DNA of 64,000 bases from Candidatus Yanofskybacteria bacterium. Lineage in GTDB: Bacteria > Patescibacteriota > Minisyncoccia > 2-02-FULL-40-12 > IGHO2-01-FULL-4-A. Under the pieces are notes generated by a model. The model searched no databases, was not told the DNA's origin, and was given only the letters and a program-made list of their open reading frames with translations. The stretch spans positions 259,519 to 323,518 of the forward strand of contig JACOZV010000001.1 in assembly GCA_016181175.1 (NCBI GenBank), written 5' to 3'. Below are positions 3,598 through 52,488 of the stretch, in pieces (position 1 is the stretch's first letter; every line of letters begins with the position of its first letter). The position numbers and the translations under genes are program-made.

Positions 3598-5439
3598 ATG
3601 AAACTCTCGGATTACGTGATTCATTTTTTGGCCGATTTGGGCTTGAAACATGTTTTTGTGCTGACGGGCGGTTATGCCGTTAATCTGATTGACTCATTCC
3701 ACAAAGAACCGAGATTGAAACATATCTGTGTTAATCATGAACAGGTTGGGGCCATGGCGGCCGAGGCCTACTCTCGTTTTGCCGGTTTTGGCGCTATGAT
3801 CAGCACTAATGCGCCGGGGGCACTGAATCTGCTTAATGGCATAGATGGCGCGTGGAATGATTCTATTCCCTGTATTTTTATCTGTGGGCAGGTAGTTAGG
3901 GAGAGATGGAACCGCAGCAAAGACGTTACTTCACATGGCCGCGAGATTGTAGATATGGTTACCATTGCCGGTTCGGTTACCAAGTATGCCCAATATGTGG
4001 AAGACCCGGAGAATATAAAATATTATATGGAGACAGCCGTTTCTATTGCCAACGAAGGCAGACCGGGACCGGTGCTCCTTGAGATTCCTTTGGATGTGCA
4101 AAAAGCAAATGTTGAGCCGGAAAAACTGGTTGGTTTTAATCCGGATCCGGATGCGCATTTAAGATTGCAAAAAGTTGGACCGCAAAACCAAGACAAGATT
4201 TCCACTAAAATTACAGAAGCTCTGGCAATGATTAAAGAAGCCAAACGTCCAGTTGTTTTGCTGGGCGGCGGGTTAAGACTATCAGGCACAATTGAACAGG
4301 CGCGAATATTTATTGAATCTCTCGGCATTCCAACTGTTGCCACTTGGGCCGCTTTTGACAATATGCCGCATAACCATCCGCTTTATCTGGGCAATATTGG
4401 CAGTTACGGGAACAGGCGGGCTAATTTTACCGTTCAAAACGCAGATTTGGTTATTGCTCTTGGAGCGCGCTTAAATGTCAGACAAACCGGCGGCAGTCCG
4501 AACACATTCGCGCGAGACGCTAAAAAAATCATGGTTGATATTGATGAATTTGAGCTGGCAAGGGCGAGAGTCAAAGTTGACCTGCCAATCAAATGCGATT
4601 TGCGTGACTTCTTTGACCTTTTGTTCGGTCAAAACAAATATCTCCCAAAGCTTAATATTGACTGTTGGCGCAATCAAACAACGACTTACAAAATCTTATA
4701 CACGGAAGTTTTACCTGAATATTATAAGCAAAAAAATTCTGTTAACGTTTATGTTTTTTTAAAAACACTTTCTAATATGATAGATGCTTCTGTTCCGGCA
4801 GTTACGGACTGCGGCGGAAACCTTATCTGGACAATGCAGGCCTTTGAGGTAAAAGATGGCCAAAGAGTTTTTTCTAATATGGGTTTGTCGTCCATGGGCT
4901 ATTCGCTTGCCGCGAGCATCGGTGTTTGCCTTGCCAACGACAAAAAACCAACTGTTTGTATAATCGGAGACGGGGGATTCCAGGTTCACATACAAGAATT
5001 GGAAACTATTAAGCGGTTGGGGCTGCCGATTAAAGTTTTTGTTTTGAACAACCACAGCTACGGAATCATTAAGCAGACAATTGAGTCGTGGTTTGGTATT
5101 GCAAGCACGGAAGAGCTTGAAAAAAGATGTTTGGCTGTATCATCGCGCGACGGTTATAGTTGTCCTGATTTTTTAAAAGTTGCCCGGGCTTATGGCATTG
5201 CCAATCTTAGGATCGGTAGTCATGCCGAAATGGAATCAGGAATAAGAGAAGCTTTGGATTATAATGGTCCAATCGTTTGTGATGTGGTGCTGGATGAACA
5301 TCAAAAAATCACTCCGCGGCTGGAATTCGGCAATCCGCTTGAAGACCAGCATCCGCTGTTGCCAAGGGAAGAATTAAAAAAGGTTATGCTAATTGATGTT
5401 TTGAAAAATAATGAAGAAGAGTGGATGCAGGGGATATAA
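3598..5439 (+). CDS. thiamine-pyrophosphate enzyme of acetolactate-synthase/sulfoacetaldehyde-acetyltransferase family
   Basis: 613 aa; TPP-binding GDGGFQ...(27 aa)...NN motif; three-domain length. Confidence 0.8.
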   Translation: MKLSDYVIHFLADLGLKHVFVLTGGYAVNLIDSFHKEPRLKHICVNHEQVGAMAAEAYSRFAGFGAMISTNAPGALNLLNGIDGAWNDSIPCIFICGQVVRERWNRSKDVTSHGREIVDMVTIAGSVTKYAQYVEDPENIKYYMETAVSIANEGRPGPVLLEIPLDVQKANVEPEKLVGFNPDPDAHLRLQKVGPQNQDKISTKITEALAMIKEAKRPVVLLGGGLRLSGTIEQARIFIESLGIPTVATWAAFDNMPHNHPLYLGNIGSYGNRRANFTVQNADLVIALGARLNVRQTGGSPNTFARDAKKIMVDIDEFELARARVKVDLPIKCDLRDFFDLLFGQNKYLPKLNIDCWRNQTTTYKILYTEVLPEYYKQKNSVNVYVFLKTLSNMIDASVPAVTDCGGNLIWTMQAFEVKDGQRVFSNMGLSSMGYSLAASIGVCLANDKKPTVCIIGDGGFQVHIQELETIKRLGLPIKVFVLNNHSYGIIKQTIESWFGIASTEELEKRCLAVSSRDGYSCPDFLKVARAYGIANLRIGSHAEMESGIREALDYNGPIVCDVVLDEHQKITPRLEFGNPLEDQHPLLPREELKKVMLIDVLKNNEEEWMQGI

Positions 5440-5485: not shown

Positions 5486-5512
5486 TATAATACTATTCCA
5501 TTAAAAACCCCC

Positions 5513-5670
5513 GCTCGCCATAGAACCTTTTGGGAATTTCGAAAACCTCCAGCGAGGTTTTCTCATCTTTTGTGATTGCCGCCATTTGTCAAGACACTCA
5601 CTTCGTTCGGTCATTGACAAAACCGTGCTGGCGGCAACCCCAGAAGTCCCAAAAGGCACTATGGCTCGCT
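5513..5670. repeat. divergent member of the family-1 terminal-inverted-repeat element (contains ccagcgag box)
   Basis: ends ctcgccatagaacctttt / aaaaggcactatggctcgct; shared ccagcgag box. Confidence 0.4.
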
Positions 5671-5831
5671 AAATTTTTGAAATAATAGATATCGCTAGAG
5701 ATCCTTTCGTGATTTCTTAAAAGTGTCTTTGGTATCGGCTTGGGGTTTGTAATTTTTGCACCCTTGACACATCGCAAATTCATATGCTAACCTATTACAA
5801 TATTAGTAACTTTAAAAATCGGGGGTTTTAA

Positions 5832-6837: not shown

Positions 6838-6907
6838 AAATTACAAACCAAGCTCACCCTCTGATTTTCTTACAACGTCATGCCTTTCTGCAAATTTTCC
6901 TCACCGT

Positions 6908-6989
6908 GCTATTGTTCCTGGCAATTTGCGGTTATCCATTCCCCCTTCGTCTTCTGACTCCGGGGCCCGCAAATTGCCAGCGGAACAAT
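6908..6989. repeat. 22-bp inverted repeat with 35-bp spacer in divergent intergenic region
   Basis: ctattgttcctggcaatttgcgg ... ccgcaaattgccagcggaacaata. Confidence 0.6.
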
Positions 6990-7125
6990 AAACGCCCGGT
7001 TCGTTAATTTACTAGTCGGCAGACGAATGACGAAAATCAAGAGGTTTCGCTTGCCTTTGGTTTGTAATTTTTTAGCGAACCATTGTGCCTTTTGTGATTT
7101 TTGTGGATAGCAAAATGGAAAAGCG

Positions 7126-7334
7126 AGGCCATTATGCCTCATAGCACCGTCAAAAGAGTGGATTGTCCCGATTCTGCTTTGCAGAATCGAGGATCCTCGA
7201 TTTTCATGAATGAAAATCGGGACATGGTTTGCGAGCAGTATAATATTTCCTCACTGCGAGCAAAATCCACGCTTTTGACGGAATGTAGAATTCTCGCTGG
7301 GAATTCAAATGGTGATAGGAGGTATAATGGCGAG
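7126..7334 (-). repeat. family-1 TIR/stem element, copy with internal palindromic insertion, followed by tandem partial duplication (7328-7387)
   Basis: reverse complement of 28019-28168 over both ends (ccattatgcctc..tcacc..ccagcgag..ccgtcaaaag.gtggatt). Confidence 0.7.
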
Positions 7335-7462
7335 CTAGTTTTTGAAATTACCAAAAGGCACTATGGCGAGCTGGTTTTTGAATTTGATAAAAATAGTGAT
7401 TCGTGCTATTTTCAATAACAAGTTTTTTAAAAATTAAATTATAGCCGGAGAGGAGGTGGAAT

Positions 7463-9124: not shown

Positions 9125-9160
9125 ACAAAGACCCAGATCGGGTCTTTTAATTTAGCAAGG

Positions 9161-9475
9161 GGGTTGACCCCGCACCTTTTCAGCACAATAATCACAGCAT
9201 GCACTGGTTATACATAATTAAAAGTAAGGAAAATGGAGAATTATATATCGGCAGCACAGGAAATTTAGTGAAAAGACTGGCCGAACATAATACTGGCAAA
9301 TCTAGAGCTACGACCAGATATAAACCATGGTTTTTTGTTTATATTGAAGGCTATTTTTCTAAGGATGATGCCTTGCATCGCGAACGGAATCTGAAATACT
9401 TTGGCAAAGTCTATGCCCAATTAAAAAGACGTATTAAAAATAGCCTTCAGGGTGCTGAAAAGGTGCGGGGTTGAC
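9161..9475 (+). mobile_element. family-2 inverted-repeat element enclosing a GIY-YIG nuclease ORF
   Basis: ggttgaccccgcaccttttcagcac ... gtgctgaaaaggtgcggggttgac flank the ORF exactly. Confidence 0.6.
9199..9474 (+). CDS. GIY-YIG nuclease family protein (YhbQ/UPF0213-like)
   Basis: 91 aa; YIGSTGNL...RLAEHN GIY-YIG core. Confidence 0.75.
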   Translation: MHWLYIIKSKENGELYIGSTGNLVKRLAEHNTGKSRATTRYKPWFFVYIEGYFSKDDALHRERNLKYFGKVYAQLKRRIKNSLQGAEKVRG

Positions 9476-9548
9476 TTTGTATTCCATTTTGATTTACTGG
9501 TTATAAATATCAAGGTTCTTTTAAATAAAATAAAAAAGGAGACAAATT

Positions 9549-15422: not shown

Positions 15423-17927
15423 ATGAATAATAAACTTAAAATATTTTTTGTGAGAAAAAACATTACACGTTTTTTTATTTTTTTAACGCCCGTAATAATT
15501 ACACTGGTTTTAATCGGCCCTACTCTTTGGGGCGGCAAGGTGTTTTTGGATTCCGCGCATTCTACGGTTCAATATTCGGCCCTGTTTTCCCTAAAGAGTT
15601 CTCTTAATTCCGGTGTATGGTTTCCGGTTTGGATTTCCCAATGGACAAGCGGATTTTCCCTCTGGCTACTTCCGGCGAATTTCGGGCTATTAAACCCGCT
15701 CCATATTATTCTGACTAAATTTTTAGATTTTGCTTTGGCGTCCCATATTCTTACCCTTTTTTATTTTATAGCCGGATTTTATGCGGCATATTTTTTGGGC
15801 AGGGCGTTGAGTTTATCCAGGGCTGCCTCCCTTATTGTCGCTCTAGCTTATGCTTTTAACAGTTTTAATGTTTGGTGGGGGCTTCTCCTTTCCTTTTCGT
15901 TTCTCTATTTTCTTTTGCCTTTTTTGTTTTTGACGTTGCTTAAGGCTTATCGGGGTGAGCGCAAGTTTATATATTGGTCGGCCCTTTTTATTTTTTTGGC
16001 TTGGCCGTTCGCTCTGCCCCAGATATTTTTATACTCGCTTATTGCGACATTTGCTTTTGCTTTGTATTTAGACTTTGCCAAACGTACGGAAGGTTTAGTT
16101 CAGAAACGCTGGCTGGCCATTAAAAGTTTTTTTTACTTTATCATCCCCGGCACTTTTTTGGCTCTCATTTGGTTGCTTCCGGTTTATGATTTTATTCAGC
16201 TTTCTTCCAGAGCCGGAGGTCTTGCTTTAGAGGCGGCAGGAGAAGGACGGCTTCTACCTTGGGATCTCATTTTTTCATATATCTATCCGTCTTTTTCAAT
16301 GCCCAAACTTATCCGCGAACATTTTTTATATATCGGTATTTTACCTTTTGCTTTAGCCATTTTTTCTTTGGTAAATTTTAGAAAAGACCGGCTGGTTAGA
16401 TTTTTTTTCATCGGTTATATTTTTATTATCTCTGCTTTATTTCCCGGTTCGCCTGTTTGGAGATTATTTAACATTACTCCGGTGCTTAATCTTTTCCGAG
16501 TGCCCCTGCAGTTACTTTTCGTGGGAAATTTTTTCTTGGCGATACTTGCTGGATTCGGTTTAGACGGATTGTCGGAAAACAAAACAATCTCGTATCTAAG
16601 GTTTTTCAAAAATTATGTCCGGGGATTGAAAATAATGGTTATATTTGGACTTGCGACGGCAATGGTTATAGCATTGATTATGAAGTTTTACAGGTCTAAC
16701 CTGCAAAATTTCGGTTATAATTATTTTGTTGAAAACTTGTTGCAATATACAAAATACCGTCCCTTGGAGCACTACTATGCCTTAATCAACGGATATTTTG
16801 ATAAGTTTTCTTGGCACGTATCTTTTCTAAATCCATATTTTTTGACCGCACTGTTTACGTTGAGTGCGGTTTTCGCCCTATTTTATTTTTACAGTCGGGG
16901 CAAACTTACATTTAACAACTTTAAAATAATCGCCGTTATTATTACTGTTCTTGATTTACTTTTCGTTTGGCGTGGCCACTACAGATTTATGCCCAGGGAT
17001 TGGTTAGACCCGGCTCCGGCGGCGGTATTTCTGAATTCAAGGGATAAAGAACCATTTAGGATTTATGTCATTTCCGAAGGGTATTTAGAGCTGGAAAAAA
17101 TGGGCTATGATAAATACGACCTCTCTAATTACAAAAAAGATATGCTTTTTAAACGGAGCCGGATGCTTGGTTTTGGATTAAACGGCGTATCTGGCATACA
17201 AGGTGAAATAACGATGCTTGATACGCGCCGTTATGCCAAAATTATAGATCTTATTACAGATTCAGACGACGGAAGGAGAATAGAACTTTCAACCGCTGAC
17301 AGAATTAAAGCATGGCAATCTTTGCAAAACAGAAATTTGCTTTCAATGATGAATGTAAAATACATTATTTCATCCTTTGACTTTAAGATGCCATGGAAAA
17401 AGATATTTGAAACCAAACCGGTTGAGGACGAGAAAATTATGACTTATGTTTATGAAAATACCGAAGTTTTGCCTAGGGTCTATTTTGCTAATAATGCAAG
17501 TTTTGCAGAACCAGACGAGTCCAGCACCAGTTTAGCCAAGGCCAAACTGGTGCTGGACGAGGCCAAAGCTTTTGACGCGTTACTGGCTATTAAAAACTTT
17601 AAGAACACAACGCTTGTTGAATGTGCGAGCGGGGATTGCGCTTATTCGGGCCAGCCGAATTTCAAAGATAGTCTGGAAATCATTGAAAAAAAAGAAGGCT
17701 ATTTAAAAGTTAAAACGCAAACCAAAAATCCAAGATATTTAGTTTATTCGGAGTCTAATTTGCCGTATTGGGAGGCGAGGATTGATGGGAAAATGTCCCC
17801 GATTCTTATGGCAAATTACGCGTATCAGGCGGTTTTGGTTCCACCGGGGGAGCATTTAGTGGAATTTCAGTATCCCGGCCCAATTACGCAGTTTAAGTAC
17901 TCACTCAAAAAACTGCTTGATTTCTAG
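15423..17927 (+). CDS. large polytopic membrane protein, YfhO-like (glycan/teichoic-acid glycosylation family)
   Basis: 834 aa, >12 predicted TM helices N-terminal, large C-terminal extracytoplasmic domain. Confidence 0.5.
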   Translation: MNNKLKIFFVRKNITRFFIFLTPVIITLVLIGPTLWGGKVFLDSAHSTVQYSALFSLKSSLNSGVWFPVWISQWTSGFSLWLLPANFGLLNPLHIILTKFLDFALASHILTLFYFIAGFYAAYFLGRALSLSRAASLIVALAYAFNSFNVWWGLLLSFSFLYFLLPFLFLTLLKAYRGERKFIYWSALFIFLAWPFALPQIFLYSLIATFAFALYLDFAKRTEGLVQKRWLAIKSFFYFIIPGTFLALIWLLPVYDFIQLSSRAGGLALEAAGEGRLLPWDLIFSYIYPSFSMPKLIREHFLYIGILPFALAIFSLVNFRKDRLVRFFFIGYIFIISALFPGSPVWRLFNITPVLNLFRVPLQLLFVGNFFLAILAGFGLDGLSENKTISYLRFFKNYVRGLKIMVIFGLATAMVIALIMKFYRSNLQNFGYNYFVENLLQYTKYRPLEHYYALINGYFDKFSWHVSFLNPYFLTALFTLSAVFALFYFYSRGKLTFNNFKIIAVIITVLDLLFVWRGHYRFMPRDWLDPAPAAVFLNSRDKEPFRIYVISEGYLELEKMGYDKYDLSNYKKDMLFKRSRMLGFGLNGVSGIQGEITMLDTRRYAKIIDLITDSDDGRRIELSTADRIKAWQSLQNRNLLSMMNVKYIISSFDFKMPWKKIFETKPVEDEKIMTYVYENTEVLPRVYFANNASFAEPDESSTSLAKAKLVLDEAKAFDALLAIKNFKNTTLVECASGDCAYSGQPNFKDSLEIIEKKEGYLKVKTQTKNPRYLVYSESNLPYWEARIDGKMSPILMANYAYQAVLVPPGEHLVEFQYPGPITQFKYSLKKLLDF

Positions 17928-17934
17928 TTCTAAA

Positions 17935-18094
17935 AGCTTGGCAAATACTGCCTTCTATCACCGCTAGCAACCCCAGCGAGATTGCGTCGCTCCGTTGAAA
18001 GCGTGGATTCGCCTCGCAGTTCAACCATTATACTGCTCGGTGACCGTGCAATCCACCCTTTCAACGGTGCTATAAAGCAGTATTTGCCAAGCTT
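17935..18094 (+). repeat. family-1 TIR/stem element
   Basis: aagcttggcaaatactgc...gcagtatttgccaagctt termini; internal tatcacc, cccagcgag, ccgttgaaagcgtggatt / aatccaccctttcaacgg. Confidence 0.75.
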
Positions 18095-18147
18095 TTAGAC
18101 TTGACATGTAATGTGTCCGCATATTAAATTTTATATTACTTAATGCC

Positions 18148-22548: not shown

Positions 22549-22689
22549 CTAACGGGATGAATCCCGAACGAGACAGCCTTTGCCAACAACAAGGAAGGGT
22601 TACGATGGCTATCTAAACGGGATTAATAAAGTATTTTTAATAGGCACGGAAATGATTTACTCAATAAATCATTTCCTGTCTCGTACGGG
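22549..22689 (+). repeat. family-3 element: gaatcccgaacgagacag / ctgtctcgtacggg arms with internal hairpin, ending at start codon
   Basis: near-identical copy at 30285-30377 (opposite strand). Confidence 0.75.
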
Positions 22690-23652
22690 ATGAGACGATA
22701 CCTATTTTTATTAATTCAGATTGTTGTCAGCGCGATGCTGGTTTTTTTTATTTTTCAAAATATTCATTTCGGTGACCTCTCGGGAGCGTTTAAGAACGTG
22801 CAGATAGAATATATTTTTATTGCTTTGGTGTTTTCCATTCCCGCGTGGCTTGTGGGTATTTTCAAATGGCAATTCCTGGCCAAAACCATCGTGGACAAAA
22901 CCCCGCCTTTTAGATTTTTTATTTCATACTATCTTGTGGGATATTTCTACGCTTTATTTGTGCCAGGCGGCCAACTTCTAGGCGAAGGAATGAAGGCTTG
23001 GAGGATGTCTAACAAGTCAGAATTCAAACCCCAGTTGTATTTATCGGTTTTTGCCGATAAGGCCATAGGTTTTATGGCTCTAGGCTGTCTGGTTTTAATA
23101 TCTTTTTTGACACAGCCTGTTTTATACGGCGACAGATTGAGTATTTTGAGTCTCGCGGTAAGTGCCGCCATTGTGCTGGCCGGTATTATGATTTTCTTCA
23201 GTCGCGTTTTGCTGGAATACTTTTATAAGGTTCCTGAATTTTTAGTCAAATTTTTGCCGTTATTTATAGCCGGCCACGTCGCCATTTTAAAGGGACTTCT
23301 CATTAAATACAATCAGCGCAGAAAATCTACTCTTATAGGTATCGGAATCGGAGCCATTGCACAGCTTATATGGGTTTTGGTTATATATTTTATTGCCCTC
23401 TCATTTAATCTCCATGTACCATTTTTATTTATTGCCTGGACTTTTTTGATAATGTCTGTAGCCACTTTTCTGCCGGTATCCTATGCCGGCTTGGGAGTGA
23501 GAGAGGGAACGTTTGTCTATTTTTTTTCGTTGTTGGGCGTATCCCGTGAGCTAGCCTTAAGCATATCGCTTATGCTATTCGGTTTTCAGGTGCTGGCTGC
23601 TTTAATCGGGGGAGGTTTTGAATTAAAAGAATTATGGAGTAGAATAAAATAA
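22690..23652 (+). CDS. polytopic membrane protein, flippase-like / lysylphosphatidylglycerol-synthase-TM-region (UPF0104) family
   Basis: 320 aa, ~8 TM helices. Confidence 0.5.
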   Translation: MRRYLFLLIQIVVSAMLVFFIFQNIHFGDLSGAFKNVQIEYIFIALVFSIPAWLVGIFKWQFLAKTIVDKTPPFRFFISYYLVGYFYALFVPGGQLLGEGMKAWRMSNKSEFKPQLYLSVFADKAIGFMALGCLVLISFLTQPVLYGDRLSILSLAVSAAIVLAGIMIFFSRVLLEYFYKVPEFLVKFLPLFIAGHVAILKGLLIKYNQRRKSTLIGIGIGAIAQLIWVLVIYFIALSFNLHVPFLFIAWTFLIMSVATFLPVSYAGLGVREGTFVYFFSLLGVSRELALSISLMLFGFQVLAALIGGGFELKELWSRIK

Positions 23653-27041: not shown

Positions 27042-27527
27042 ATGAAACTTAGAGAACATCTGATAATTGGCGTTGTGTCTGTGATTATTTTAACTCCGCA
27101 TTGGGGCCTGTGGCGGGCGCTTTTATTTTGGGGAGCGGAGGTACTGATAGACGCCGACCATTATTGGGACTATTTGTGGCGGAGCAAGTTTCAGGATTGG
27201 AGCGGTTGGCGGATGTTTAGGTATTATAACCGAATAACCGAGCACATGCATGATAAAAACTTTTTTGCAATCAGCATATTGCATACCGTCGAAGTTTTTA
27301 TCGGCGTGTATTTGTTGGCCAGTTATTGGAATTACAACTTTTTTATGACGATTTTTTGGGGGTTGGTGTTTCATCTGATTTTGGATATGATTTATCAGTT
27401 GAAACTCAAATGCTTCTTCGTTCGCGCCTACTCAATAGTTGAGTATTTAATTCGCAAACGTTTAATGCTTAATCGCGGCCTCAACCCCGATGGCTTTTAC
27501 AAAAAAATGTTTGAGCTGTCAAAGTGA
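27042..27527 (+). CDS. hypothetical membrane protein
   Basis: 161 aa, hydrophobic. Confidence 0.4.
   Translation: MKLREHLIIGVVSVIILTPHWGLWRALLFWGAEVLIDADHYWDYLWRSKFQDWSGWRMFRYYNRITEHMHDKNFFAISILHTVEVFIGVYLLASYWNYNFFMTIFWGLVFHLILDMIYQLKLKCFFVRAYSIVEYLIRKRLMLNRGLNPDGFYKKMFELSK
27478..27514 (+). repeat. 37-bp direct repeat, copy 1 (gcctcaaccccgatggcttttacaaaaaaatgtttga)
   Basis: second copy at 27945-27981. Confidence 0.8.
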
Positions 27528-27933: not shown

Positions 27934-27944
27934 GCTTTACCGCA

Positions 27945-27981
27945 GCCTCAACCCCGATGGCTTTTACAAAAAAATGTTTGA
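27945..27981 (+). repeat. 37-bp direct repeat, copy 2
   Basis: matches 27478-27514. Confidence 0.8.
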
Positions 27982-28018
27982 ATTTTCAAAATAACACTTG
28001 CCCCCATCAAAAATTATC

Positions 28019-28168
28019 GCTCGCCATTATGCCTCCTATCACCATTTGAATTCCCAGCGAGAATTCTACATTCCGTCAAAAGCGTGGATTTTGCTCGCAG
28101 TGTTTTACTATTATACTGCTCGCAAACCGTGCAATCCACTCTTTTGACGGTGCTATGAGGCATAATGC
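28019..28168 (+). repeat. family-1 TIR/stem element
   Basis: ctcgccattatgcctcctatcacc...cccagcgag...ccgtcaaaagcgtggatt...aatccactcttttgacggtgctatgaggcataatgc. Confidence 0.75.
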
Positions 28169-28229
28169 TTTGACCGAATTAGAAAAATAAAAACCGCCTC
28201 AGCCATGAAAGCATCGACGGTAGATTTAT

Positions 28230-28661: not shown

Positions 28662-28949
28662 TTTAATCTCCTATTTTTAAAAAACTAGTTTAAAACAGCA
28701 TAGCATAAATAGTGATATGTTGTCAAATTTTTGCTATGTTTCAGAATGCTTTCTCAAAAATTAAAAAACCTAAGCCGTCAACAGACGGCGGTTTTTATCA
28801 CTCCCATAATTGTTAAGGAGAGGATGTCAGTTTCCGGCGCAGGCGGACCCTTTTTGTGAAAAATCCCAGCAGGGTGGATTGAACAAAAAGGGTCCGCGGA
28901 GCCGGAAGATAAACTATTATGCTACCTTATTTTAATTTTTGAGGTCTAA

Positions 28950-30284
28950 CTAGCGGAATGCTTTTTTTAAGAGGATATTTATTGTTTTAAGTAAAATTCC
29001 CAGGTCTAAGATCAATGACCTGTTTTTTATGTAAAACAAATCATGCTGGAGTTTTTCATACGTATCTTTGATGGTCATGCCGCCGCGGAAGTCCAGCTTA
29101 TATTTGATTTGCGCCCAACCGGTCAGTCCCGGCTTGACCAAGTAGCGTTCTTCGTAAAAAGGGATTTCAGATTTTAATTTCTGGTGGAACTCGGGTCTTT
29201 CCGGGCGAGGCCCAACAAATGACATTTCGCCGCGCAATATGTTCCAAATTTGCGGTAGTTCGTCAATTCTTGTTTTGCGCAAAAACTTGCCGACTCGCGT
29301 AGTTCGAGCATCATTTTCAGCGGCCCAAATCGGACCCGTACTTTTTTCAATCTCCTGAAACATTGTCCTGAACTTTATTACGGTGAAAATTTTGCCGATT
29401 CGTCCCATTCGTCCTTGGTGATAGAAAACTTGACCACGCGAATCAAGTTTTATAGCTAAGATTATCAAGGGATAAAACGGCAGGGTCAGCAGCCCTATGA
29501 TTATGGTGCCGATTAAATCTAAAATTCTTTTTCCAGTTTCGTATCCGCGTCGGCTACCCTGAGAGAGGTTTTCCAAAAACCAAACCTGATCTATAGTTTC
29601 CAGTGGTATTCTTCCGGCAACTCGTTCATAAAAATCGGACAAGTTGAAAAAATTTATCCCAAAACCTACCAGGTGGTAAAACACGTCTATTATGTGCGGT
29701 ATCTTATAAACCGTCGGAGCCAGAACCAATGTCCGGATATTTTTTCTCTTAATCAGGTTGTCTAAAATTGCAGAAGCGGTTTTATCTCCAATATCAAGTA
29801 TGCCTAAGACGCCGTATCCCAGTTGTGGATTATTCAACAAAAAGTCGTAAAGCTCTTGAGATTGTTGACTCAAGCCGACTATTAATGTATTATTTTTGTA
29901 GCCGTTTTTGGCGGTGAGCCGATTAAAGAAAAAGCGCCAAAATCCTTGTAAGGCTGCAATAATGACAATAAAAACAAATAAGTTGGTTTTGGGGGCGATT
30001 CTAAAAAACTGGACAAAATAGAAGAAAAAAATAGAGATAGACGAAATAACGGCAATTGTATAAAAAAGATCGGAAAAAAAGCGGGCGTTATTTTTAGAAA
30101 GACCTATTTCATACAGATTGGAAATATAAAAAACTATTACCCAAACAACAAAAATAATGGTGAACGGTAGAAAGTGCATGCTGATCTGCTCGTCAAAACT
30201 ACGCCCATACCTTGCATAGAGGGTCAAAAAAAGCGCTAGATATAGGGTAATAATGTCGCCCAAGAAGAGTAAAAATTTACGCAT
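28950..30284 (-). CDS. polyprenyl-phosphate sugar phosphotransferase (bacterial sugar transferase, WbaP/PglC-like)
   Basis: C-terminal [25 protein letters not shown]; N-terminal TM helices; start moved to ATG abutting family-3 repeat. Confidence 0.8.
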
Positions 30285-30377
30285 CCCGTACGAGACAGGA
30301 AATGATTTATCTGAGTAAATCATTTCCGTGCCCATTTAATCTACTTTATTAATCCCGCCTAGATAACCATCGTAACC
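30285..30377 (-). repeat. family-3 element copy (lacks left arm), abuts sugar-transferase start
   Basis: ~90% identical to 22592-22689. Confidence 0.75.
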
Positions 30378-30391
30378 ATTTCGGTATTGGA

Positions 30392-35465: not shown

Positions 35466-35498
35466 AGGCGTACTCCGAAAACCCCGCGTTGCGGGGTT
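35466..35498 (+). terminator. rho-independent terminator
   Basis: aaaaccccgcgttgcggggtttt. Confidence 0.65.
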
Positions 35499-35531
35499 TT
35501 CAATTTGTTTATTTTGTGATAAATTATAGGG

Positions 35532-35690
35532 GCTTAGCGAATAATACCTTCTATCACCATTTGTCGCCCCAGCGAGGCGACTGCATTCCGTCAAAAATAT
35601 TAATTTTGATTTTGTTGAAGAAATATTGTAACAAAATCAAACCATGCAATTAACACTTTTGACGGTGCTATAAGGTATTATTCGCTAAGC
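35532..35690 (+). repeat. family-1 TIR/stem element
   Basis: gcttagcgaataatacc...ggtattattcgctaagc termini; tatcacc, ccccagcgag, ccgtcaaaa / ttttgacggtgctata. Confidence 0.75.
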
Positions 35691-35700
35691 CCGTTCATAT

Positions 35701-36036
35701 ATGCGTACAATGATTCATACTAAAAACCTGGAGCTGACTCCGTCAATAGAAATTTTTGTTAAACAAAAGATGGATACGATTGCCAAGCTTTTTAAGCCAG
35801 GTGAACAATTAACCGAGGCGCGTATTGAAATTGGTAAGCCCTCTAGTCATCACCAAAAAGGCCCGGTTTATTATGCCGAGATTAACCTCAAAATAGGCGG
35901 CAAGTTATTGAGAGCTACTACCGAACACGTGGATCTTCGAACCGCCATTGACTTTGCTAGGGACGAAGTTGAACGTCAAATCAAAAAATTTAAATCTAAA
36001 ATTAGAGATACACAGAGGATTCCAAAACGGTCATGA
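35701..36036 (+). CDS. hpf: ribosome hibernation-promoting factor / RaiA family
   Basis: MIHTKNLELTPSI... typical S30AE family. Confidence 0.8.
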   Translation: MRTMIHTKNLELTPSIEIFVKQKMDTIAKLFKPGEQLTEARIEIGKPSSHHQKGPVYYAEINLKIGGKLLRATTEHVDLRTAIDFARDEVERQIKKFKSKIRDTQRIPKRS

Positions 36037-39276: not shown

Positions 39277-39720
39277 ATGAAAAACAAAAATAAAATTATT
39301 ATAGTCGTGTCAGGCGGTATGGATCCGCTTCATCCGGGCCACATACGTCTTTTCCAGGAAGCCAAGAAGTTGGGCGATGAGCTTGTTGTCATTCTAAATA
39401 ACGACAACTGGTTGAAAAAGAAAAAAGGTTACGTGTTTATGTCTGAAAAAGAACGCAAGGAAGTCATTGAGGCAATCAAGGGGGTTGATCGGGTAATTCT
39501 TACTAAACATTCGTCTAAGACGTTAGATATGAGTGTGCGTGCCGAACTGAAAAAAATTCGGCCCCACATTTTTGCAAACGGCGGCGACAGAAACGAAGGT
39601 AATATTCCAGAAATTGCTGTTTGCAAAAAAATAGGATGCAAGGTGGTTTTTAATGTCGGACGAGGAGGCAAAATCGCTTCAAGTTCTAAACTTGTTGCCG
39701 GCTTTGCAAAAGAAAGTTAA
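39277..39720 (+). CDS. cytidylyltransferase-like nucleotidyltransferase (HxGH; glycerol-3-P cytidylyltransferase/heptose-1-P adenylyltransferase family)
   Basis: IIVVSGGMDPLHPGHIRLF. Confidence 0.75.
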   Translation: MKNKNKIIIVVSGGMDPLHPGHIRLFQEAKKLGDELVVILNNDNWLKKKKGYVFMSEKERKEVIEAIKGVDRVILTKHSSKTLDMSVRAELKKIRPHIFANGGDRNEGNIPEIAVCKKIGCKVVFNVGRGGKIASSSKLVAGFAKES

Positions 39721-39724
39721 TAAT

Positions 39725-39847
39725 GAATCCCGAACGAGACAGCTAATTTTTACCTTGCTAAATAATTGCCGTGTTATTAGTTGTCATTTATGGCGGGATT
39801 ACTTATAATCAACGGAAATGCATAAAGCATTTCCTGTCTCGTACGGG
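39725..39847 (+). repeat. family-3 element spanning the whole intergenic spacer (arm after stop, arm before ATG)
   Basis: gaatcccgaacgagacagc ... ggaaatgcataaagcatttcctgtctcgtacggg-ATG. Confidence 0.75.
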
Positions 39848-40408
39848 ATGAATATTCAAAAAGTAATTTCGGAGACGAGAGATATATTTCTCAAGTCGGA
39901 CGTGTCTTTACCGCTTTTGCTTAAAATAAAAACCACCGAGCTGGTTTTGAATCTTATGGCCCATCAAAAAAATTTTGGTCTTTTTATAATACTTGGCTGG
40001 CAGGATAAATGGCAGGAATATACGGATATTTCTGATGCCGCTCAGGATATTTTTGTTGCTCACCGCATAAACCTGAACGATATAGAAAATCACTCTGATT
40101 GGTATCTTGAGGTGGAGTCTACGGTTGGTTTTGACGGTGCTATCCTGATAGATGGTAACGGCGTGATACAACACTCCGGCGTTATATTGGAAGGTTTGCG
40201 TCCCCGAATGGTTGCCGACGCGATAAATCCGGGTCAGTTCAAGGACTTGTCAGAACAGTTTGGTTTCAAGCAAAAAGTCCATTCAAGACATCTTTTTGCC
40301 ATTACTTCTTCTCATGTTTTTAAAAATACCGCCGTTTTTACTGTTTCTGAAGAGAACAACACTTTCCACATTTTTGAAGCCGGAAAGATTGTTTACTCAA
40401 CAGACTGA
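39848..40408 (+). CDS. hypothetical protein, possible DisA_N/diadenylate-cyclase-like domain (tentative)
   Basis: FDGAILIDGNGVI...RHLFAIT weakly resembles DAC DGA/RHR motifs. Confidence 0.3.
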   Translation: MNIQKVISETRDIFLKSDVSLPLLLKIKTTELVLNLMAHQKNFGLFIILGWQDKWQEYTDISDAAQDIFVAHRINLNDIENHSDWYLEVESTVGFDGAILIDGNGVIQHSGVILEGLRPRMVADAINPGQFKDLSEQFGFKQKVHSRHLFAITSSHVFKNTAVFTVSEENNTFHIFEAGKIVYSTD

Positions 40409-43895: not shown

Positions 43896-45287
43896 GTGTT
43901 ACGTAGATTTACTCCATTGATAATTTTAGCCGTTGCTCTGTTTTTGGGCGTTTTTGCTTATCCTCAAGGTTGGGATATGGGCGCGGACATAGTAAATTCA
44001 AAACTCAAAATCCAAAATTCAAAATATAAGATTCCACGTATGTTTAAAATTCCGCCATTTCGTCTTGGTCTTGACCTGTTGGGCGGTACCCACTTAGTTT
44101 ATCAAGCCGATTTGTCTGGAACCGAGGGTCAAAGCGCTGGTGACGCTATGTCTGGTGTGCGTGACGTTATCGAGCGCAGAGTTAATCTTTTTGGCGTTGC
44201 AGAACCGTTGGTGCAAATTGAAGGCAACGATCGTCTTGTGGTGGAATTGGCCGGCATCAAAGATGTAAATCAGGCAATACAGATGATTGGTCAGACGCCA
44301 TTTTTGGAATTCAAAGAAGAACGTCCGTCAGAAGAGTCGCAAAAAATTATTGAAGCCCAACAAAAAGGTTCATCCAGCACCAGTTTGGACAGCCCCGAAC
44401 TGGTGCTGGACAAGCAACAGTTTGAAGATCCGTATTTTAAGCCAACCGGTTTAACCGGTCGATATCTTAAGCGTTCCCAATTGACATTTGATCAGACAAC
44501 ATCACAACCGGAGGTTTCGCTGGAATTAAACGACGACGGAGCAAAATTATTTGCTGAAATTACAAAGCGAAATATTGGGAAGCGTGTTGCAATTTATGTT
44601 GACGGCGTGGGCATAAGCGCACCGACGGTTCAAAGCGAAATTCCAAGCGGTCGTGCCGTGATCAGTGGCAGTTTTTCCATAAAAGAAGCCAGGGATTTAG
44701 TTAACAATCTTAATGCCGGGGCACTGCCGGTACCGATAAATTTAATTTCACAACAGACGGTGGGCCCTTCTTTGGGGCAGGAATCACTGCAAAAATCATT
44801 GACGGCCGGCTTATACGGATTGCTTGCGGTAGCCATTTTCATGATATTGTTTTACCGTTTGCCCGGCCTTGTGTCAGTTGTCGCTTTGTTGGTGTATGTT
44901 GCAATTGTTCTGACTGTCTATAAAGTAATTCCGGTAACGCTGACTTTGGCCGGAATAGCAGGTTTTATATTGTCTTTGGGTATGGCTGTGGATGCCAATA
45001 TTTTGATTTTTGCCAGAATGCGCGAAGAGTTAAAGGCTGGCAATTCTTTAGCACAGTCATTTGCAAGCGGTTTCCACCGAGCTTGGTACTCAATCCGTGA
45101 CAGTCACGTTACAACTTTGCTCGGCGCTTTTGTGCTGTATGCTTTTTCAACATCTGTGGTTAGGGGATTTGCTTTGACGCTTGGAATCGGAGTTTTGGCA
45201 AGTTTGTTTACGGCCATTGTTATTACTAAATCATTTTTAAGGTTGTTTATTGGACACAAAATGGAGAAAACAAAGTGGATGTTTTAA
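43896..45287 (+). CDS. secD: protein-export membrane protein SecD
   Basis: 463 aa; N-terminal TM, periplasmic domain, C-terminal 6-TM RND-like block. Confidence 0.9.
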   Translation: MLRRFTPLIILAVALFLGVFAYPQGWDMGADIVNSKLKIQNSKYKIPRMFKIPPFRLGLDLLGGTHLVYQADLSGTEGQSAGDAMSGVRDVIERRVNLFGVAEPLVQIEGNDRLVVELAGIKDVNQAIQMIGQTPFLEFKEERPSEESQKIIEAQQKGSSSTSLDSPELVLDKQQFEDPYFKPTGLTGRYLKRSQLTFDQTTSQPEVSLELNDDGAKLFAEITKRNIGKRVAIYVDGVGISAPTVQSEIPSGRAVISGSFSIKEARDLVNNLNAGALPVPINLISQQTVGPSLGQESLQKSLTAGLYGLLAVAIFMILFYRLPGLVSVVALLVYVAIVLTVYKVIPVTLTLAGIAGFILSLGMAVDANILIFARMREELKAGNSLAQSFASGFHRAWYSIRDSHVTTLLGAFVLYAFSTSVVRGFALTLGIGVLASLFTAIVITKSFLRLFIGHKMEKTKWMF

Positions 45288-45291
45288 ATAT

Positions 45292-45570
45292 GAATCCCAA
45301 ACGAGACAGCAAAACCATGTTTTATACATATGTTTTAAGAAATAAAAAAAGCCGCTTTTATGTTGGTTTTACTTATGATTTACGGAAACGCTTCAATGAA
45401 CATAATAATAAAAAATCAACTTATACAAAATATCGTGGCCCATACGAACTTATTTACTATGAAGCTTGTCTTGATGAGAATGACGCTCGTTAAAGAGAAA
45501 AGTATTTTAAATCTGGAACAGGTAAACGCTACTTCAAAAACAGATTGAAGCGTTTCCTGTCTCGTACTGG
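45292..45570 (+). mobile_element. family-3 arms enclosing a GIY-YIG ORF, inserted between secD and secF
   Basis: gaatcccaaacgagacagc after secD stop; ttcctgtctcgtactgg immediately before secF ATG. Confidence 0.6.
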
Positions 45571-45571
45571 A
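45317..45571 (+). pseudogene. GIY-YIG nuclease (YhbQ-like) interrupted by in-frame TAA at codon 59; would otherwise end ATGA-overlapped with secF
   Basis: FYTYVLRNKKSRFYVGFTYDLRKRFNEHN...YELIYYEACLDENDAR-stop-REKYFKSGTGKRYFKNRLKRFL. Confidence 0.6.
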
Positions 45572-46461
45572 TGAAACCCATATATACAATTATGTTTTTT
45601 ATTTCCATGGCGCTGACTGTCGCGGCCGTTATTTTGGTGGCAGTTTTTGGTTTGCGTTTTGGGGTAGATTTCAAGGGCGGCTCTTTACTGGAAATTGCCT
45701 TTGTTAATCCTCGTCCATCAACCGGAGAAATACAAAATATTATAAGCGGGATTGACGGTGTCAAAAACATAAATGTAAATCCGGTGGGTGACAACGGTGC
45801 TTTAATAAGGCTAAATGATATCAATGAGCAGACTCATCAAGATATTTTAACTAAGATTTCCGGAAGTTTTGGTGAGATAATGGAAAATCGCTTTGATTCC
45901 ATAGGTCCTGTAGTCGGCAATGAGTTGAGAGATAAGAGCGTTAAGGCAATAGTAATTTTATTAATAGCTATAATTATTTATCTCGCTTTTGTTTTTAGGA
46001 AAATTTCACGCGTTCTTTCCTCTTGGGCTATGGGTTTAGCTGCCATTGTTGCGCTGGTTCATGATGTTATTATACCCGTTGGCGTTTTTGCGTTACTTGG
46101 GCATTATTATGGAATTGAGATTACGGCAATTTTTGTGGCGGCCGCATTAACTATTTTGGGGTATTCGCTTTCTGACTCCGTTGTTATTTTTGATAGAGTA
46201 AGAGAAAACGTGCTTCGTTTGGGCATTTCTCATCAAAGTTTCGGAGCACTTGTCCACAAAAGTGTCTTACAAACCCTGGTCCGTTCCATTAATACGACCC
46301 TCACAACGCTATTTTCTCTGATTGTGATTTACTTTTTTGGAGGAGAATCAATAAAATACTTTTCTTTAGCCCTAATTATAGGTATTTTTTCAGGCGCTTA
46401 TTCTTCAATTTTTGTTGCTTCTCCGATTCTAGTTTGGCTTAGCAATCGACGCAAGAGTTAA
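45571..46461 (+). CDS. secF: protein-export membrane protein SecF
   Basis: 296 aa, 6-TM SecF pattern. Confidence 0.9.
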   Translation: MKPIYTIMFFISMALTVAAVILVAVFGLRFGVDFKGGSLLEIAFVNPRPSTGEIQNIISGIDGVKNINVNPVGDNGALIRLNDINEQTHQDILTKISGSFGEIMENRFDSIGPVVGNELRDKSVKAIVILLIAIIIYLAFVFRKISRVLSSWAMGLAAIVALVHDVIIPVGVFALLGHYYGIEITAIFVAAALTILGYSLSDSVVIFDRVRENVLRLGISHQSFGALVHKSVLQTLVRSINTTLTTLFSLIVIYFFGGESIKYFSLALIIGIFSGAYSSIFVASPILVWLSNRRKS

Positions 46462-50828: not shown

Positions 50829-51077
50829 GCAAACCCTGGAGTTACATCAAAAATTACAAATTTAATTAGCAAAAAAGATTATTTGCCGGCTACGCGCACG
50901 TGTTTTGCTGGCCCTCTTGGACAGGCGCAAAACGCGCGCGCCTCCGCCGGTAAGTAACATCCTCTGCTTAGCAATTATGGGAGTGATAAAAACCGCCGAT
51001 TGGTATCGGCTTTTGTTTTGTAATTTTTGATGATAGCAATTTGATTTTTTGTATTTTTTGATATTTAATCAAAGGTA

Positions 51078-52364: not shown

Positions 52365-52398
52365 AACCGGCTTAAGCCGGTTTTATGGTTTATGAGGG

Positions 52399-52447
52399 TC
52401 CGTCCACCAGGAATCGAACCTGGAACCTTCTCCTTAAAAGGGAGCTG
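52399..52447 (-). repeat. duplicated 3' half (anticodon stem to 3' end) of tRNA-Lys, not a complete tRNA
   Basis: 49 nt identical to 52489-52537 region of the full gene. Confidence 0.8.
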
Positions 52448-52488
52448 TCCTGGTTTTGTAAACAAAATCGAGGATTCTCGATACAAAG

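What the first reader, a model, noticed from the sequence alone, without database searches (positions are those of the whole stretch)
17935..18094. Family-1 150-bp structured repeat with terminal inverted repeats and compensatory stem changes (5-6 copies)
Copies at 5513-5670 (divergent), 7126-7334, 17935-18094, 28019-28168 and 35532-35690 share an ordered set of boxes. Copy ends pair as inverted repeats. The internal stem co-varies: copy 28019 has ccgtcAAaag / cttTTgacgg, copy 17935 has ccgtTGaaag / cttTCAacgg. Compensatory changes argue for selection on a hairpin (structured RNA or DNA cruciform), not just sequence drift. All copies are intergenic. One (7126-7334) carries a nested palindromic insertion and a tandem partial duplication.
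Basis: seen in the sequence. Interest (0 to 1): 0.65.

Follow-up and report, generated by a model that had tools for sequence, protein, structure and literature searches.

The report
Branched palindromic repeat family in Patescibacteria
A real, previously uncatalogued family of about 165-230 bp intergenic repeats in tiny-genome (CPR/Patescibacteria) bacteria folds into a conserved Y-shaped hairpin; it behaves most like miniature mobile DNA of the REPIN/MITE kind, not like a classical RNA gene.

Summary
A covariance model finds exactly five copies in the window: 17929-18099, 27997-28168, 35530-35692, 7123-7335 (minus strand) and a sister type at 5513-5669. A pattern scan found 56 more copies in 12 Patescibacteria MAGs.

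On 49 full copies the fold is a three-way junction. It has a long terminal stem (P1), a 6-bp side hairpin with loop CCAGCGA (P2), and a long arm with a 3' bulge ACCRTGC (P3). 97.2% of cells pair, 31 of 49 pairs carry changes on both sides, and 0 of 500 shuffles match this.

Several results argue against a strand-specific RNA gene:
- Pairs are almost purely Watson-Crick (G·T 1.0%, A·C 1.9%).
- Orientation relative to neighbouring genes is random (20 versus 17).
- There is no internal promoter and no Rfam match.

Presence/absence at an orthologous site, nesting of copies, and a second small palindrome inserted at one fixed bulge position indicate mobility. However, several copies sit at orthologous loci in genomes only about 70% identical and still keep locus-specific paired stems, so the hairpin is maintained in place.

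Best reading: structure-dependent, non-autonomous mobile DNA (REPIN/MITE-like) with an unknown partner enzyme. This is a new family of a known kind, of moderate interest.

The parts
17929..18099 (+). Index copy (A-type, 'type ii' ends): complete element of 171 nt. It starts 2 nt after the stop codon of ORF 15423-17927. It ends 2 nt before a promoter-like TTGACA-18-TAAATT at 18101-18130.
   Evidence: I10; 150.2 bits
17929..17963 (+). P1 5' arm of the index copy. It pairs with 18065-18099 and contains the box CTATCACC (17955-17962).
   Evidence: I10 (35 nt, 91% complementary)
17967..17985 (+). P2 side hairpin GCAACC-CCAGCGA-GATTGC. The 7-nt loop CCAGCGA is conserved in all types, while the stem sequence is replaced from copy to copy.
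   Evidence: (helix 2: 5 of 6 pairs change on both sides)
17990..18064 (+). P3 long arm. It contains CCGTTGAAAGCGTGGATT / AATCCACCCTTTCAACGG, the 3' bulge ACCGTGC (18043-18049), and the apical part with a CTCGC box (18013-18017).
18065..18099 (+). P1 3' arm of the index copy, containing the box GGTGCTAT (18066-18073).
   Evidence: I10
27997..28168 (+). A-type copy with the 'long-form' 5' shell (CTTGCCCCCATCAAAAATTATC, then GCTCGCC...). The 3' shell is missing. It is orthologous to the copy in L020.
   Evidence: (165.5 bits)
35530..35692 (+). A-type copy with a variant apical stem. It lies between the murB terminator (35477-35501) and the hpf start (35710). The orthologous site is empty in L057 and L059 and filled in L056.
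   Evidence: (145.4 bits)
7123..7335 (-). A-type core that carries a nested insertion and lies inside a B-type shell.
   Evidence: I1, I7; 67.4 bits
7165..7223 (-). Nested 59-nt 'cloverleaf' palindrome GTCCCGA-hairpin-TCGAGGATCCTCGA-hairpin-TCGGGAC. It is inserted exactly in the P3 bulge (ACCATG^CAATCC).
7339..7371 (-). B-type 5' arm (GCTCGCCATAGTGCCTTTTGGTAATTTCAAAAAC) that forms the outer shell of the composite.
   Evidence: (I8: 83% complementary to 5505-5546)
7074..7095 (-). B-type 3' arm (CACAAAAGGCACAATGGTTCGC) of the composite shell.
   Evidence: (D12, D13)
5513..5669 (+). B-type sister copy. It has the same architecture, the same P2 loop (CCAGCGA at 5549-5555) and the same bulge (ACCGTGC at 5622-5628), but entirely different stem sequences.
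   Evidence: (46.1 bits)

Best explanation
Family-1 is a non-autonomous, structure-dependent mobile DNA element of Patescibacteria. It is a 165-230 bp imperfect palindrome without an ORF, closest in behaviour to REPINs and hairpin-forming MITEs.

Proposed mechanism:
- When one strand is unpaired it folds into a three-way junction. P1 is a terminal stem of 20-35 bp. P2 is a 6-bp hairpin with the loop CCAGCGA. P3 is a long arm with the 3' bulge ACCRTGC and optional GCTCGC/GCTCGC internal loops.
- The helices matter only as helices, because their sequences are freely replaced by Watson-Crick alternatives.
- The unpaired loop, the bulge and the CTCGC boxes are conserved in sequence. They are inferred to be the contacts for a protein acting in trans that has not been identified.
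- Copies insert into very short AT-rich intergenic gaps, next to stop codons and promoters, in either orientation and without a clear target duplication.
- Loops and bulges of existing palindromes are favoured targets, which produces nested composites.
- Copies then persist for long periods, with the two arms kept complementary in place.

Shown: repetition, fold, covariation, strand neutrality, presence/absence polymorphism, nesting, and persistence at orthologous sites.

Inferred: that single-stranded DNA is the active form, that a dedicated enzyme exists, and the mode of insertion.
For: 1. Family and fold. There are 5 copies in 64 kb and 56 more in 12 MAGs. 97.2% of cells pair, 31 of 49 pairs change on both sides, and 0 of 500 shuffles match.
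2. Pairing is almost purely Watson-Crick: 2307 Watson-Crick, 23 G·T, 45 A·C and 22 other cells. Wobble pairs are not enriched as they are in RNA families.
3. Orientation relative to co-directional flanking genes is 20 same versus 17 opposite. No promoter-like site lies inside copies 17935 or 35532.
4. Mobility.
 - Upstream of hpf the site is filled in the window and in L056 but empty in L057 and L059.
 - L056 and L057 are each other's closest relatives (hpf 83% identical, against 72.5% for window versus L056).
 - The flanks of the window copy join up to the length of the empty site.
 - A second filled/empty case is L030 2300-2465 against L044 and L007.
5. Nesting. An A core sits inside a B shell in the window, L014, L029 and L046. 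A 57-59-nt cloverleaf palindrome is inserted at the identical bulge position in four different host variants from four genomes, and also occurs free-standing.
6. There is no ORF. Length differences in the loops are not multiples of three.
7. The same unpaired motifs are kept in A-, B- and C-type copies whose stems differ completely.
8. CTCGC occurs at four fixed positions on one strand, about 20-fold above background.
9. [quoted passage not shown]
Against: - No transposase, RAYT or other partner gene was found. The genes between inverted pairs are housekeeping genes or an orphan ORF.
- No ORF-carrying autonomous version exists among about 60 copies.
- No consistent target-site duplication was found.
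- Several copies are at orthologous loci in genomes whose flanks are only 66-79% identical, and they still have near-perfect, locus-specific stems. A purely selfish, decaying MITE would not show this. It requires selection on each copy or arm-to-arm correction.
- Core variants up to 98% identical occur at non-orthologous loci of different genomes. This needs strong constraint or horizontal spread.
- The three boxes used in the retrieval pattern are invariant by construction.
Confidence: 0.5

Rival explanations
1. Host-retained cis element. The copies are kept because the long hairpin itself does something useful at gene boundaries, in either orientation. Possible roles are a bidirectional transcription barrier or insulator, an RNase III or mRNA-stability hairpin in polycistronic transcripts, or a cruciform that binds nucleoid or topoisomerase proteins. 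Mobility would then be only how the copies arrived.
For: - Copies abut the stop codon of the upstream gene and often fill the whole intergenic gap.
- Copy 17935 sits between a stop codon and the next promoter, with no other terminator there.
- Orthologous copies persist across genomes about 70% identical, with locus-specific stems that are still paired.
- Strand neutrality fits a function of the hairpin as such.
Against: - The most conserved parts are the asymmetric unpaired motifs (P2 loop, bulge, CTCGC boxes). A plain hairpin function does not need them, and as RNA they would differ between the two orientations.
- Copies 35532 and 5513 sit downstream of an independent intrinsic terminator or a terminator-like hairpin.
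- No T-run follows the stems consistently.
- Close relatives do without the element at the hpf site.
Confidence: 0.2
2. A multicopy structured non-coding RNA. Each copy would be transcribed from one element strand, probably the complement of the strand written here, and would act as RNA. The P2 loop and the bulge would serve as protein- or RNA-binding sites.
For: - Strong covariation and conserved unpaired motifs.
- The complement strand folds more stably in 48 of 49 copies, with means of -66.8 and -59.9 kcal/mol.
- A·C mismatches outnumber G·T 45 to 23 on the written strand, which means G·U on the complement. By my tally, this excess is seen in both orientation classes (18:8 and 16:9).
- The P2 loop GCGAG is complementary to the CTCGC boxes, so a loop-receptor contact is possible.
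Against: - Wobble pairs are only 1-2% of cells.
- There is no internal or consistently placed promoter or terminator.
- Flanking sequences are unrelated between copies.
- Orientation relative to neighbours is random, and copies are wedged 0-25 nt from coding sequences.
- Dozens of copies per roughly 1-Mb genome would be unusual for an RNA gene.
- No Rfam family matches.
- The strand asymmetry comes from homologous, non-independent copies.
Confidence: 0.12
3. Folded recombination sites (like integron attC sites, or Xer-type sites) that mark points of gene-cassette exchange.
For: - Copy 28019 lies directly after a variable island bounded by a 57-nt direct repeat. The island holds one ORF in the window and CotH/VTC/DUF4956 in L020 (D7, 25, 31).
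- attC sites are also imperfect palindromes recognised by structure (own knowledge).
Against: - Copies are 1.7-10 kb apart, in mixed orientation, and not in arrays.
- Most copies flank housekeeping genes with conserved synteny.
- No integrase gene was recognised in the parts of the window and loci that were examined.
- The ends lack the RYYYAAC/GTTRRRY core.
Confidence: 0.04

Closest known systems
REPINs (REP doublets forming hairpins) mobilised by RAYT transposases
   Same: Both are short, ORF-less, intergenic and multicopy, and both fold as a long hairpin in a single strand. Compensatory changes in the stem are common in both (PMC3116915). Both show long vertical persistence with occasional gain or loss, both orientations, and clustered or nested arrangements.
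   Different: Family-1 is not a doublet of two short REP palindromes. It is an asymmetric three-way junction of 165-230 bp with a side hairpin and a bulge. It has no conserved REP-type 5' tetranucleotide, and no RAYT was found. The host phylum is Patescibacteria, whereas the REPIN hosts named in the cited paper are Pseudomonas, E. coli and Nostoc.
Hairpin-forming bacterial MITEs and structured intergenic repeats (Correia/NEMIS, ERIC/IRU, RUP, BOX, Bacillus cereus bcr1); recalled from own knowledge, not tested here
   Same: Size of 100-250 bp, terminal inverted repeats, intergenic location close to gene ends and promoters, stable predicted folds, modular or mosaic composition, and frequent co-transcription with neighbouring genes.
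   Different: Those families usually have a defined target duplication (for example TA for Correia) and sequence-conserved terminal repeats. Here the outer stem sequence is locus-specific, no consistent duplication is seen, and the conserved parts are the unpaired loop and bulge.
Integron attC sites
   Same: Both are imperfect palindromes whose structure is conserved more than their sequence, with asymmetric unpaired bases.
   Different: Family-1 is not in arrays, has no fixed orientation, has no cassette-sized spacing, lacks the conserved R/L core boxes, and no integrase gene was recognised nearby.
Rfam structured RNA families
   Same: Covariation-supported secondary structure with conserved loops.
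   Different: No family matches at gathering score or at E of 10 or less, apart from spurious miRNA hairpins at 13-24 bits against cut-offs of 51-95. Wobble pairs are not enriched, and there is no orientation bias and no promoter.

Membership tests
MITE (miniature inverted-repeat transposable element) | Small (under about 300 bp), no ORF, multicopy | tested here: met
   Elements are 165-230 bp. There are 5 copies in 64 kb and 56 in 12 MAGs. Loop length differences are not multiples of three.
MITE (miniature inverted-repeat transposable element) | Terminal inverted repeats | tested here: met
   P1 arms of 20-35 nt in every full copy. However, their outer sequence varies between loci.
MITE (miniature inverted-repeat transposable element) | Target-site duplication of fixed length | tested here: not met
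   Flanks of 25 type-ii copies and two filled/empty comparisons show no consistent duplication. There is only a tendency for T or TA at the 3' flank.
MITE (miniature inverted-repeat transposable element) | Presence/absence polymorphism at orthologous sites | tested here: met
   The hpf upstream site is filled in the window and L056 and empty in L057 and L059. L030 2300-2465 is filled where L044 and L007 are empty.
MITE (miniature inverted-repeat transposable element) | A related autonomous element that encodes a transposase and shares the ends | tested here: inconclusive
   None was found among about 60 copies, between inverted pairs, or in viral, plasmid and phage collections. Whole genomes could not be searched.
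REPIN / RAYT system | Unit made of two inverted REP sequences, each a short palindrome with a conserved 5' motif | tested here: not met
   The consensus fold is an asymmetric three-way junction, not a REP doublet.
REPIN / RAYT system | Hairpin in a single strand with compensatory changes | tested here: met
   (31 of 49 pairs); PMC3116915 for the family trait.
REPIN / RAYT system | A single-copy RAYT (IS200-like Y1 transposase) gene in the same genome, flanked by the repeats | not testable with these tools
   Only 64 kb of the 374,535-bp source contig and loci of at most 8 kb were available. No such gene was noticed in them.
Structured non-coding RNA gene or cis-regulatory RNA (Rfam-type family) | Covariation-supported secondary structure | tested here: met
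Structured non-coding RNA gene or cis-regulatory RNA (Rfam-type family) | Strand-specific signature (G·U tolerated, A·C avoided) and a fixed orientation relative to the genes served, or its own promoter and terminator | tested here: not met
   G·T 23 against A·C 45 of 2397 cells. Orientation is 20 versus 17. No promoter-like site lies inside the copies.
Structured non-coding RNA gene or cis-regulatory RNA (Rfam-type family) | Match to a curated family | tested here: not met
Integron attC site | Arrays of same-orientation sites separating cassettes, conserved R''/L''-L'/R' boxes, intI nearby | tested here: not met
   Spacing is 1.7-10 kb, orientation is mixed, the ends lack GTTRRRY, and no integrase gene was recognised in the ORF lists or Pfam sample examined.

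The most novel reading that the evidence does not exclude
The family could be the nucleic-acid half of a Patescibacteria-specific partnership that has not been described. In this reading, a conserved three-way-junction fold with a GCGAG loop and CTCGC 'receptor' boxes is recognised as single-stranded DNA or RNA by a dedicated, possibly domesticated, enzyme unrelated to RAYTs. One speculative candidate is the class of small GIY-YIG nucleases, which in the same window sit inside their own inverted-repeat elements. The system would be maintained by selection in genomes of about 1 Mb.
Probability: 0.2. Interest if true: 0.75.

Novelty: new member of a known kind. Interest (0 to 1): 0.5.

Why it matters
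CPR/Patescibacteria genomes are among the smallest and most streamlined known (own knowledge). This 165-230 bp element occurs about once per 13 kb in this window. It is kept at up to 98% core identity between genomes whose genes are only 70-80% identical, and it is retained at orthologous sites with compensated stems.

This means that either a persistent mobile-DNA/enzyme partnership or a host-level use of structured DNA or RNA exists in these organisms. The family gives a clean, covariation-rich test case for separating DNA-hairpin constraints from RNA constraints.

It is also a practical annotation item. It is absent from Rfam, and it creates spurious small ORFs and miRNA-like hits.

Tried and rejected
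- Rfam at gathering score over the whole window, and at E of 10 or less on two copies, gave only a tRNA and sub-threshold miRNA hairpins.
- Viral contigs, plasmid records and phage records gave no match.
- I looked for a partner gene between inverted copy pairs. The genes found were rpmF-nusB-rnc in L011, a hydrolase-like ORF in L040, and an orphan 126-aa ORF in the window whose only database match is itself.
- I tested for GIY-YIG association with Family-1. Only one further GIY-YIG hit turned up in about 1 Mb of loci, and it is not next to a copy.
- I looked for a target-site duplication and found none that is consistent.
- I looked for an internal sigma-70-type promoter or a terminator tail and found none.
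- A coding reading of the small ORFs that run through copies is rejected. Stems change by paired substitutions, and loop lengths vary by non-multiples of three.
- The integron attC reading is rejected on spacing, orientation and end sequence.
- The first look-up of the source contig failed because of the choice of start codon. It was resolved by P0001, a Yanofskybacteria MAG with a 374,535-bp contig.
- The literature search found no description of such repeats in CPR bacteria.

Full report
**1. The observation**

Repeat finding links 17945-18079, 28026-28162 and 35541-35677 as direct copies, and 7130-7335 as an inverted copy (D1, D3, I1, I3, I5, I7). The index copy has a 35-nt terminal inverted repeat, 17929-17963 / 18065-18099, 91% complementary (I10).

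A covariance model built mostly from copies in other genomes finds exactly these five in the 64-kb window:

| Copy | Strand | Score (bits) |
|---|---|---|
| 28023-28169 | + | 165.5 |
| 17942-18086 | + | 150.2 |
| 35538-35684 | + | 145.4 |
| 7147-7312 | - | 67.4 |
| 5517-5665 | + | 46.1 |

All other hits are reverse-strand echoes or weak hairpins.

The index copy folds far better than shuffles. As DNA it reaches -49.8 kcal/mol (z = -9.7). As RNA on the other strand it reaches -89.8 kcal/mol (z = -10.6). The quoted compensatory change (CA/TG to TG/CA in the P3 stem) is real. All copies lie between ORFs.

**2. Where the window comes from and how wide the family is**

A neighbouring methyltransferase is 100% identical to a protein of a Candidatus Yanofskybacteria MAG on a 374,535-bp contig. 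The pattern CTATCACC-N9-14-CCCAGCGAG-N8-12-TCCGT found 55 loci (56 copies) in the species-representative genome collection. All are Patescibacteria/CPR MAGs labelled Yanofskybacteria, Paceibacteria/Paceibacterota, 'Saccharibacteria', Buchananbacteria or Patescibacteria group, from 12 assemblies. Viral contigs, plasmids and phages hold none. Rfam has no match. The held literature has no description of such repeats in CPR bacteria.

**3. Anatomy**

Forty-nine uninterrupted copies align over 159 columns. The consensus fold is a three-way junction:
- P1 is a terminal stem. Nineteen pairs fall within the modelled core, and it extends to 20-26 bp in most 'type ii' copies.
- P2 is a 6-bp side hairpin closed by C-G around the 7-nt loop CCAGCGA.
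- P3 is a long arm (CCGTYRAAAGCGTGGATT...) with a 3' bulge ACCRTGCA. Its apical stem usually carries GCTCGC on both arms, which gives a T·C/C·T internal loop.

The motif CTCGC sits at four fixed places on the same strand (two in P1 of 'type i' copies, two in P3). Its density is about 10 per kb, against 0.5 per kb in the rest of the window. Its complement GCGAG occurs only in the P2 loop.

Sister types share the architecture, the CCAGCGA loop and the ACCRTGC bulge, but their stem sequences are entirely different:
- B-type: window 5513-5669, and copies in L013, L014 and L049.
- C-type: L011 2099-2247 and L057 2242-2387.

One caveat applies. Three boxes are invariant in the A-type set because the retrieval pattern required them. 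The evidence that the loop and bulge are truly conserved therefore rests on the B- and C-type copies and on L030 2300-2465. Of these, the C-type copies and L030 were found by the model alone. The B-type copies were picked out by a CCAGCGAG-plus-bulge text search, so they are not independent evidence for those two motifs.

**4. Covariation**

On the 49 copies, 97.2% of cells form a standard pair. The shuffled mean is 82.0%, and slid controls give 36-47%. Thirty-one of 49 pairs show changes on both sides, in 362 cells. No shuffle out of 500 reaches any of the five measures. P2 is the clearest case: GAATTC/GAATTC, GCAACC/GGTTGC, GTCGCC/GGCGAC, GTCCGC/GCGGAC and others all surround an unchanged loop.

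**5. RNA or DNA?**

Four results bear on this question.
- Pair types. There are 2307 Watson-Crick cells, 23 G·T, 45 A·C and 22 other. Wobble pairs are as rare as true mismatches, which is unlike RNA families.
- Orientation. Among copies between co-directional genes, 20 face the same way as the genes and 17 the opposite way. Eight lie between convergent genes and two between divergent genes.
- Promoters and terminators. No promoter-like site lies inside copies 17935 or 35532. Next to them are a promoter-like site immediately downstream of 17935 (18101-18130) and a terminator upstream of 35532 (35477-35501).
- Flanks. They are unrelated between copies, and copies are often 0-25 nt from the neighbouring coding sequences. 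In L031 the copy lies directly between the stop codon of the upstream ORF and an ATG.

Together these results argue against a discrete RNA gene and against an orientation-dependent cis-regulatory RNA.

A residual strand signal exists. A·C exceeds G·T on the written strand, which is G·U on the complement. By my tally, this holds in both orientation classes. The complement strand also folds better in 48 of 49 copies. The copies are homologous, so this signal is weak. It hints that one particular strand is the folded, functional one, whether as single-stranded DNA or as RNA.

**6. Mobility**

- The hpf site. In the window the order is murB, terminator, element, hpf. The contig L056 has a copy at the same position, 16-17 nt before the hpf ATG. 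L057 and L059 have murB, terminator and hpf with no element, and a spacer of 44-47 nt. That equals the joined flanks of the window copy (46 nt).
- What the relationships imply. The hpf sequences of L056 and L057 are 83% identical, while window versus L056 is 72.5%. At least two events (two gains, or a gain and a precise loss) are therefore needed. The two filled copies are only 58% identical and carry different stem variants.
- A different element at the same place. L058 carries a different repeat (Family-2) at this site, so the site is permissive for insertions.
- A second filled/empty case. L030 2300-2465 is filled. In L044 and L007 the site is empty, and a TGTTATAAT box lies 6-7 nt before the start codon.
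- Nesting. An A-type core lies inside B-type arms in the window (7074-7371), L014, L029 and L046.
- A nested cloverleaf. A 57-59-nt palindrome (GTCCCGA-hairpin-TCGAGGATCCTCGA-hairpin-TCGGGAC) is inserted at exactly ACCATG^CAATCC. This is seen in the window, L008, L016 and L052, whose host copies are different variants. The same palindrome occurs free-standing in L048 and L051, and nested in itself in L062.
- Target duplication. No consistent duplication is seen.

**7. Persistence**

With the elements masked, all-against-all comparison of the loci shows several sets of copies at orthologous sites in different genomes. Examples are L048/L009/L037/L002, L044/L007/L030, L029/L005/L022, L021/L049/L039, L011/L024 and window 28019/L020. 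The flanks in these sets are 66-81% identical.

Within a set, the outer P1 sequence is locus-specific and shared. GACAGGGCAA / TTGCCCTGTC is found in both L048 and L037, and CTAGTCAGACCCC in L049 matches CTAGCCAGACCC in L039. The two arms also remain complementary: 21 and 23 perfect pairs in L048 and L037. Pairing is therefore maintained in place over long times.

Orthologous cores are 65-88% identical, about the same as the coding flanks. By contrast, the nearest relative of a copy lies in another genome for 40 of 49 copies, and reaches 98% identity at non-orthologous loci. The stem variants behave as discrete modules that recombine. A decaying selfish insertion would not look like this. The pattern requires element-level or host-level purifying selection, arm-to-arm correction, or both.

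**8. Interpretation**

The best-supported reading is a structure-dependent, non-autonomous mobile DNA family of the REPIN/MITE kind. Its helices are needed as helices. Its unpaired loop, bulge and CTCGC boxes are probably protein contacts. REPINs show the same combination of a single-strand hairpin, common compensatory changes and long persistence (PMC3116915).

Membership in REPINs is not claimed. The unit is not a REP doublet, and no RAYT could be looked for beyond the 64-kb window and the 8-kb loci. Classical MITE membership fails on target duplication and lacks a known autonomous parent.

The rival readings are a host-retained hairpin function at gene boundaries, a multicopy RNA, and recombination sites. 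They are scored in the structured fields. The first two are not excluded, and the first may coexist with mobility.

**9. Verdict**

The element is a new, uncatalogued family, but it belongs to a known kind of bacterial repeat. Its interest lies in three things: the host lineage, the unusually clean branched fold with conserved unpaired motifs, and the evidence for long-term maintenance in very small genomes.

Noticed in passing
window 22551-22693, 30273-30380, 39717-39851, 45284-45574: A second repeat family (Family-2) with terminal inverted repeats ATCCCG(A/T)ACGAGACAG. Three copies are short. The copy at 45284-45574 carries a 72-aa GIY-YIG ORF (45275-45493; Pfam GIY-YIG, E = 6.7e-12), so it looks like the autonomous form. 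The right end ...CGTACGGGATGA abuts or supplies the ATG of the downstream genes; the 'FPVSYGM' N-termini of ORFs 39818 and 28950-30335(-) are read-through of the repeat. A copy also sits just upstream of hpf in L058.
   Followed up: partly
window 9160-9478: A 91-aa GIY-YIG ORF (9199-9474; Pfam E = 5.7e-19) is bracketed by a near-perfect inverted repeat of about 24 bp (GGGGTTGACCCCGCACCTTTTCAGCAC ... GTGCTGAAAAGGTGCGGGGTTGAC). This is another small nuclease gene inside its own palindrome.
   Followed up: partly
window 7165-7223; L048 ~5340-5410; L051 ~2180-2290; L062 ~650-790; fragment at window ~52466-52482: A 57-59-nt 'cloverleaf' palindrome (GTCCCGA-hairpin-TCGAGGATCCTCGA-hairpin-TCGGGAC) is a family of its own. 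Its two inner hairpins covary. It inserts at one fixed position of Family-1 copies, also occurs alone, and is nested in itself in L062. A related fragment (AAATCGAGGATTCTCGAT) lies between the tRNA-Lys and its partial duplicate.
   Followed up: partly
window 6845-7040 (- strand); L029 1722-1930; L039 1500-1745: A non-coding stretch of about 190 nt is conserved in three genomes. Its consensus fold is rod-like, and 8 of 57 predicted pairs change on both sides among only three sequences. It has no Rfam match (best E = 1.8-6.9). It lies upstream of a class II aldolase-like ORF in L029 and of a 138-aa membrane-protein-like ORF in the window. It is a candidate uncatalogued structured RNA (a leader or a small RNA).
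   Followed up: partly
window 27467-27523 and 27934-27990; L020 1131-5126: A 57-nt direct repeat (89% identical) of the 3' end of the 161-aa gene brackets a variable island. The island holds one 147-aa ORF in the window, and three ORFs of 795, 246 and 228 aa in the syntenic L020, which I read from their sequences as a CotH / VTC-domain / DUF4956 cluster (not run against Pfam). This is a gene-exchange hotspot directly upstream of copy 28019.
   Followed up: partly
window 52398-52447 and 52488-52537: tRNA-Lys(UUU) at 52488-52561 (-) has an exact 50-nt duplicate of its 3' part 90 nt away. This looks like an attachment-site scar.
   Followed up: partly
L044 ~2590-2615, L007 ~3805-3825, L057 ~385-400, window 35693-35712: In empty sites a good extended -10 box (TGTTATAAT or CATAAT) lies only 6-7 nt before the start codon, which suggests leaderless mRNAs. 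Element insertions fall just upstream of the -10 box, or between it and the ATG.
   Followed up: no
window 28754-28856 and 50928-51030; also 5729-5758 / 51000-51029 / 7053-7102: Another inverted repeat pair, 103 nt and 83% complementary, lies upstream of genes 28950-30335(-) and 51078-52364(+). A shared motif TTGGTATCGGCTT..GTTTTGTAATTTTTG also occurs near copy 5513. It was not examined.
   Followed up: no
window 17519-17561 and 44370-44414: A 42-nt palindromic motif (TCCAGCACCAGTTT..AAACTGGTGCTGGA) occurs twice (81-83% identical), apparently inside coding regions. It was not examined.
   Followed up: no
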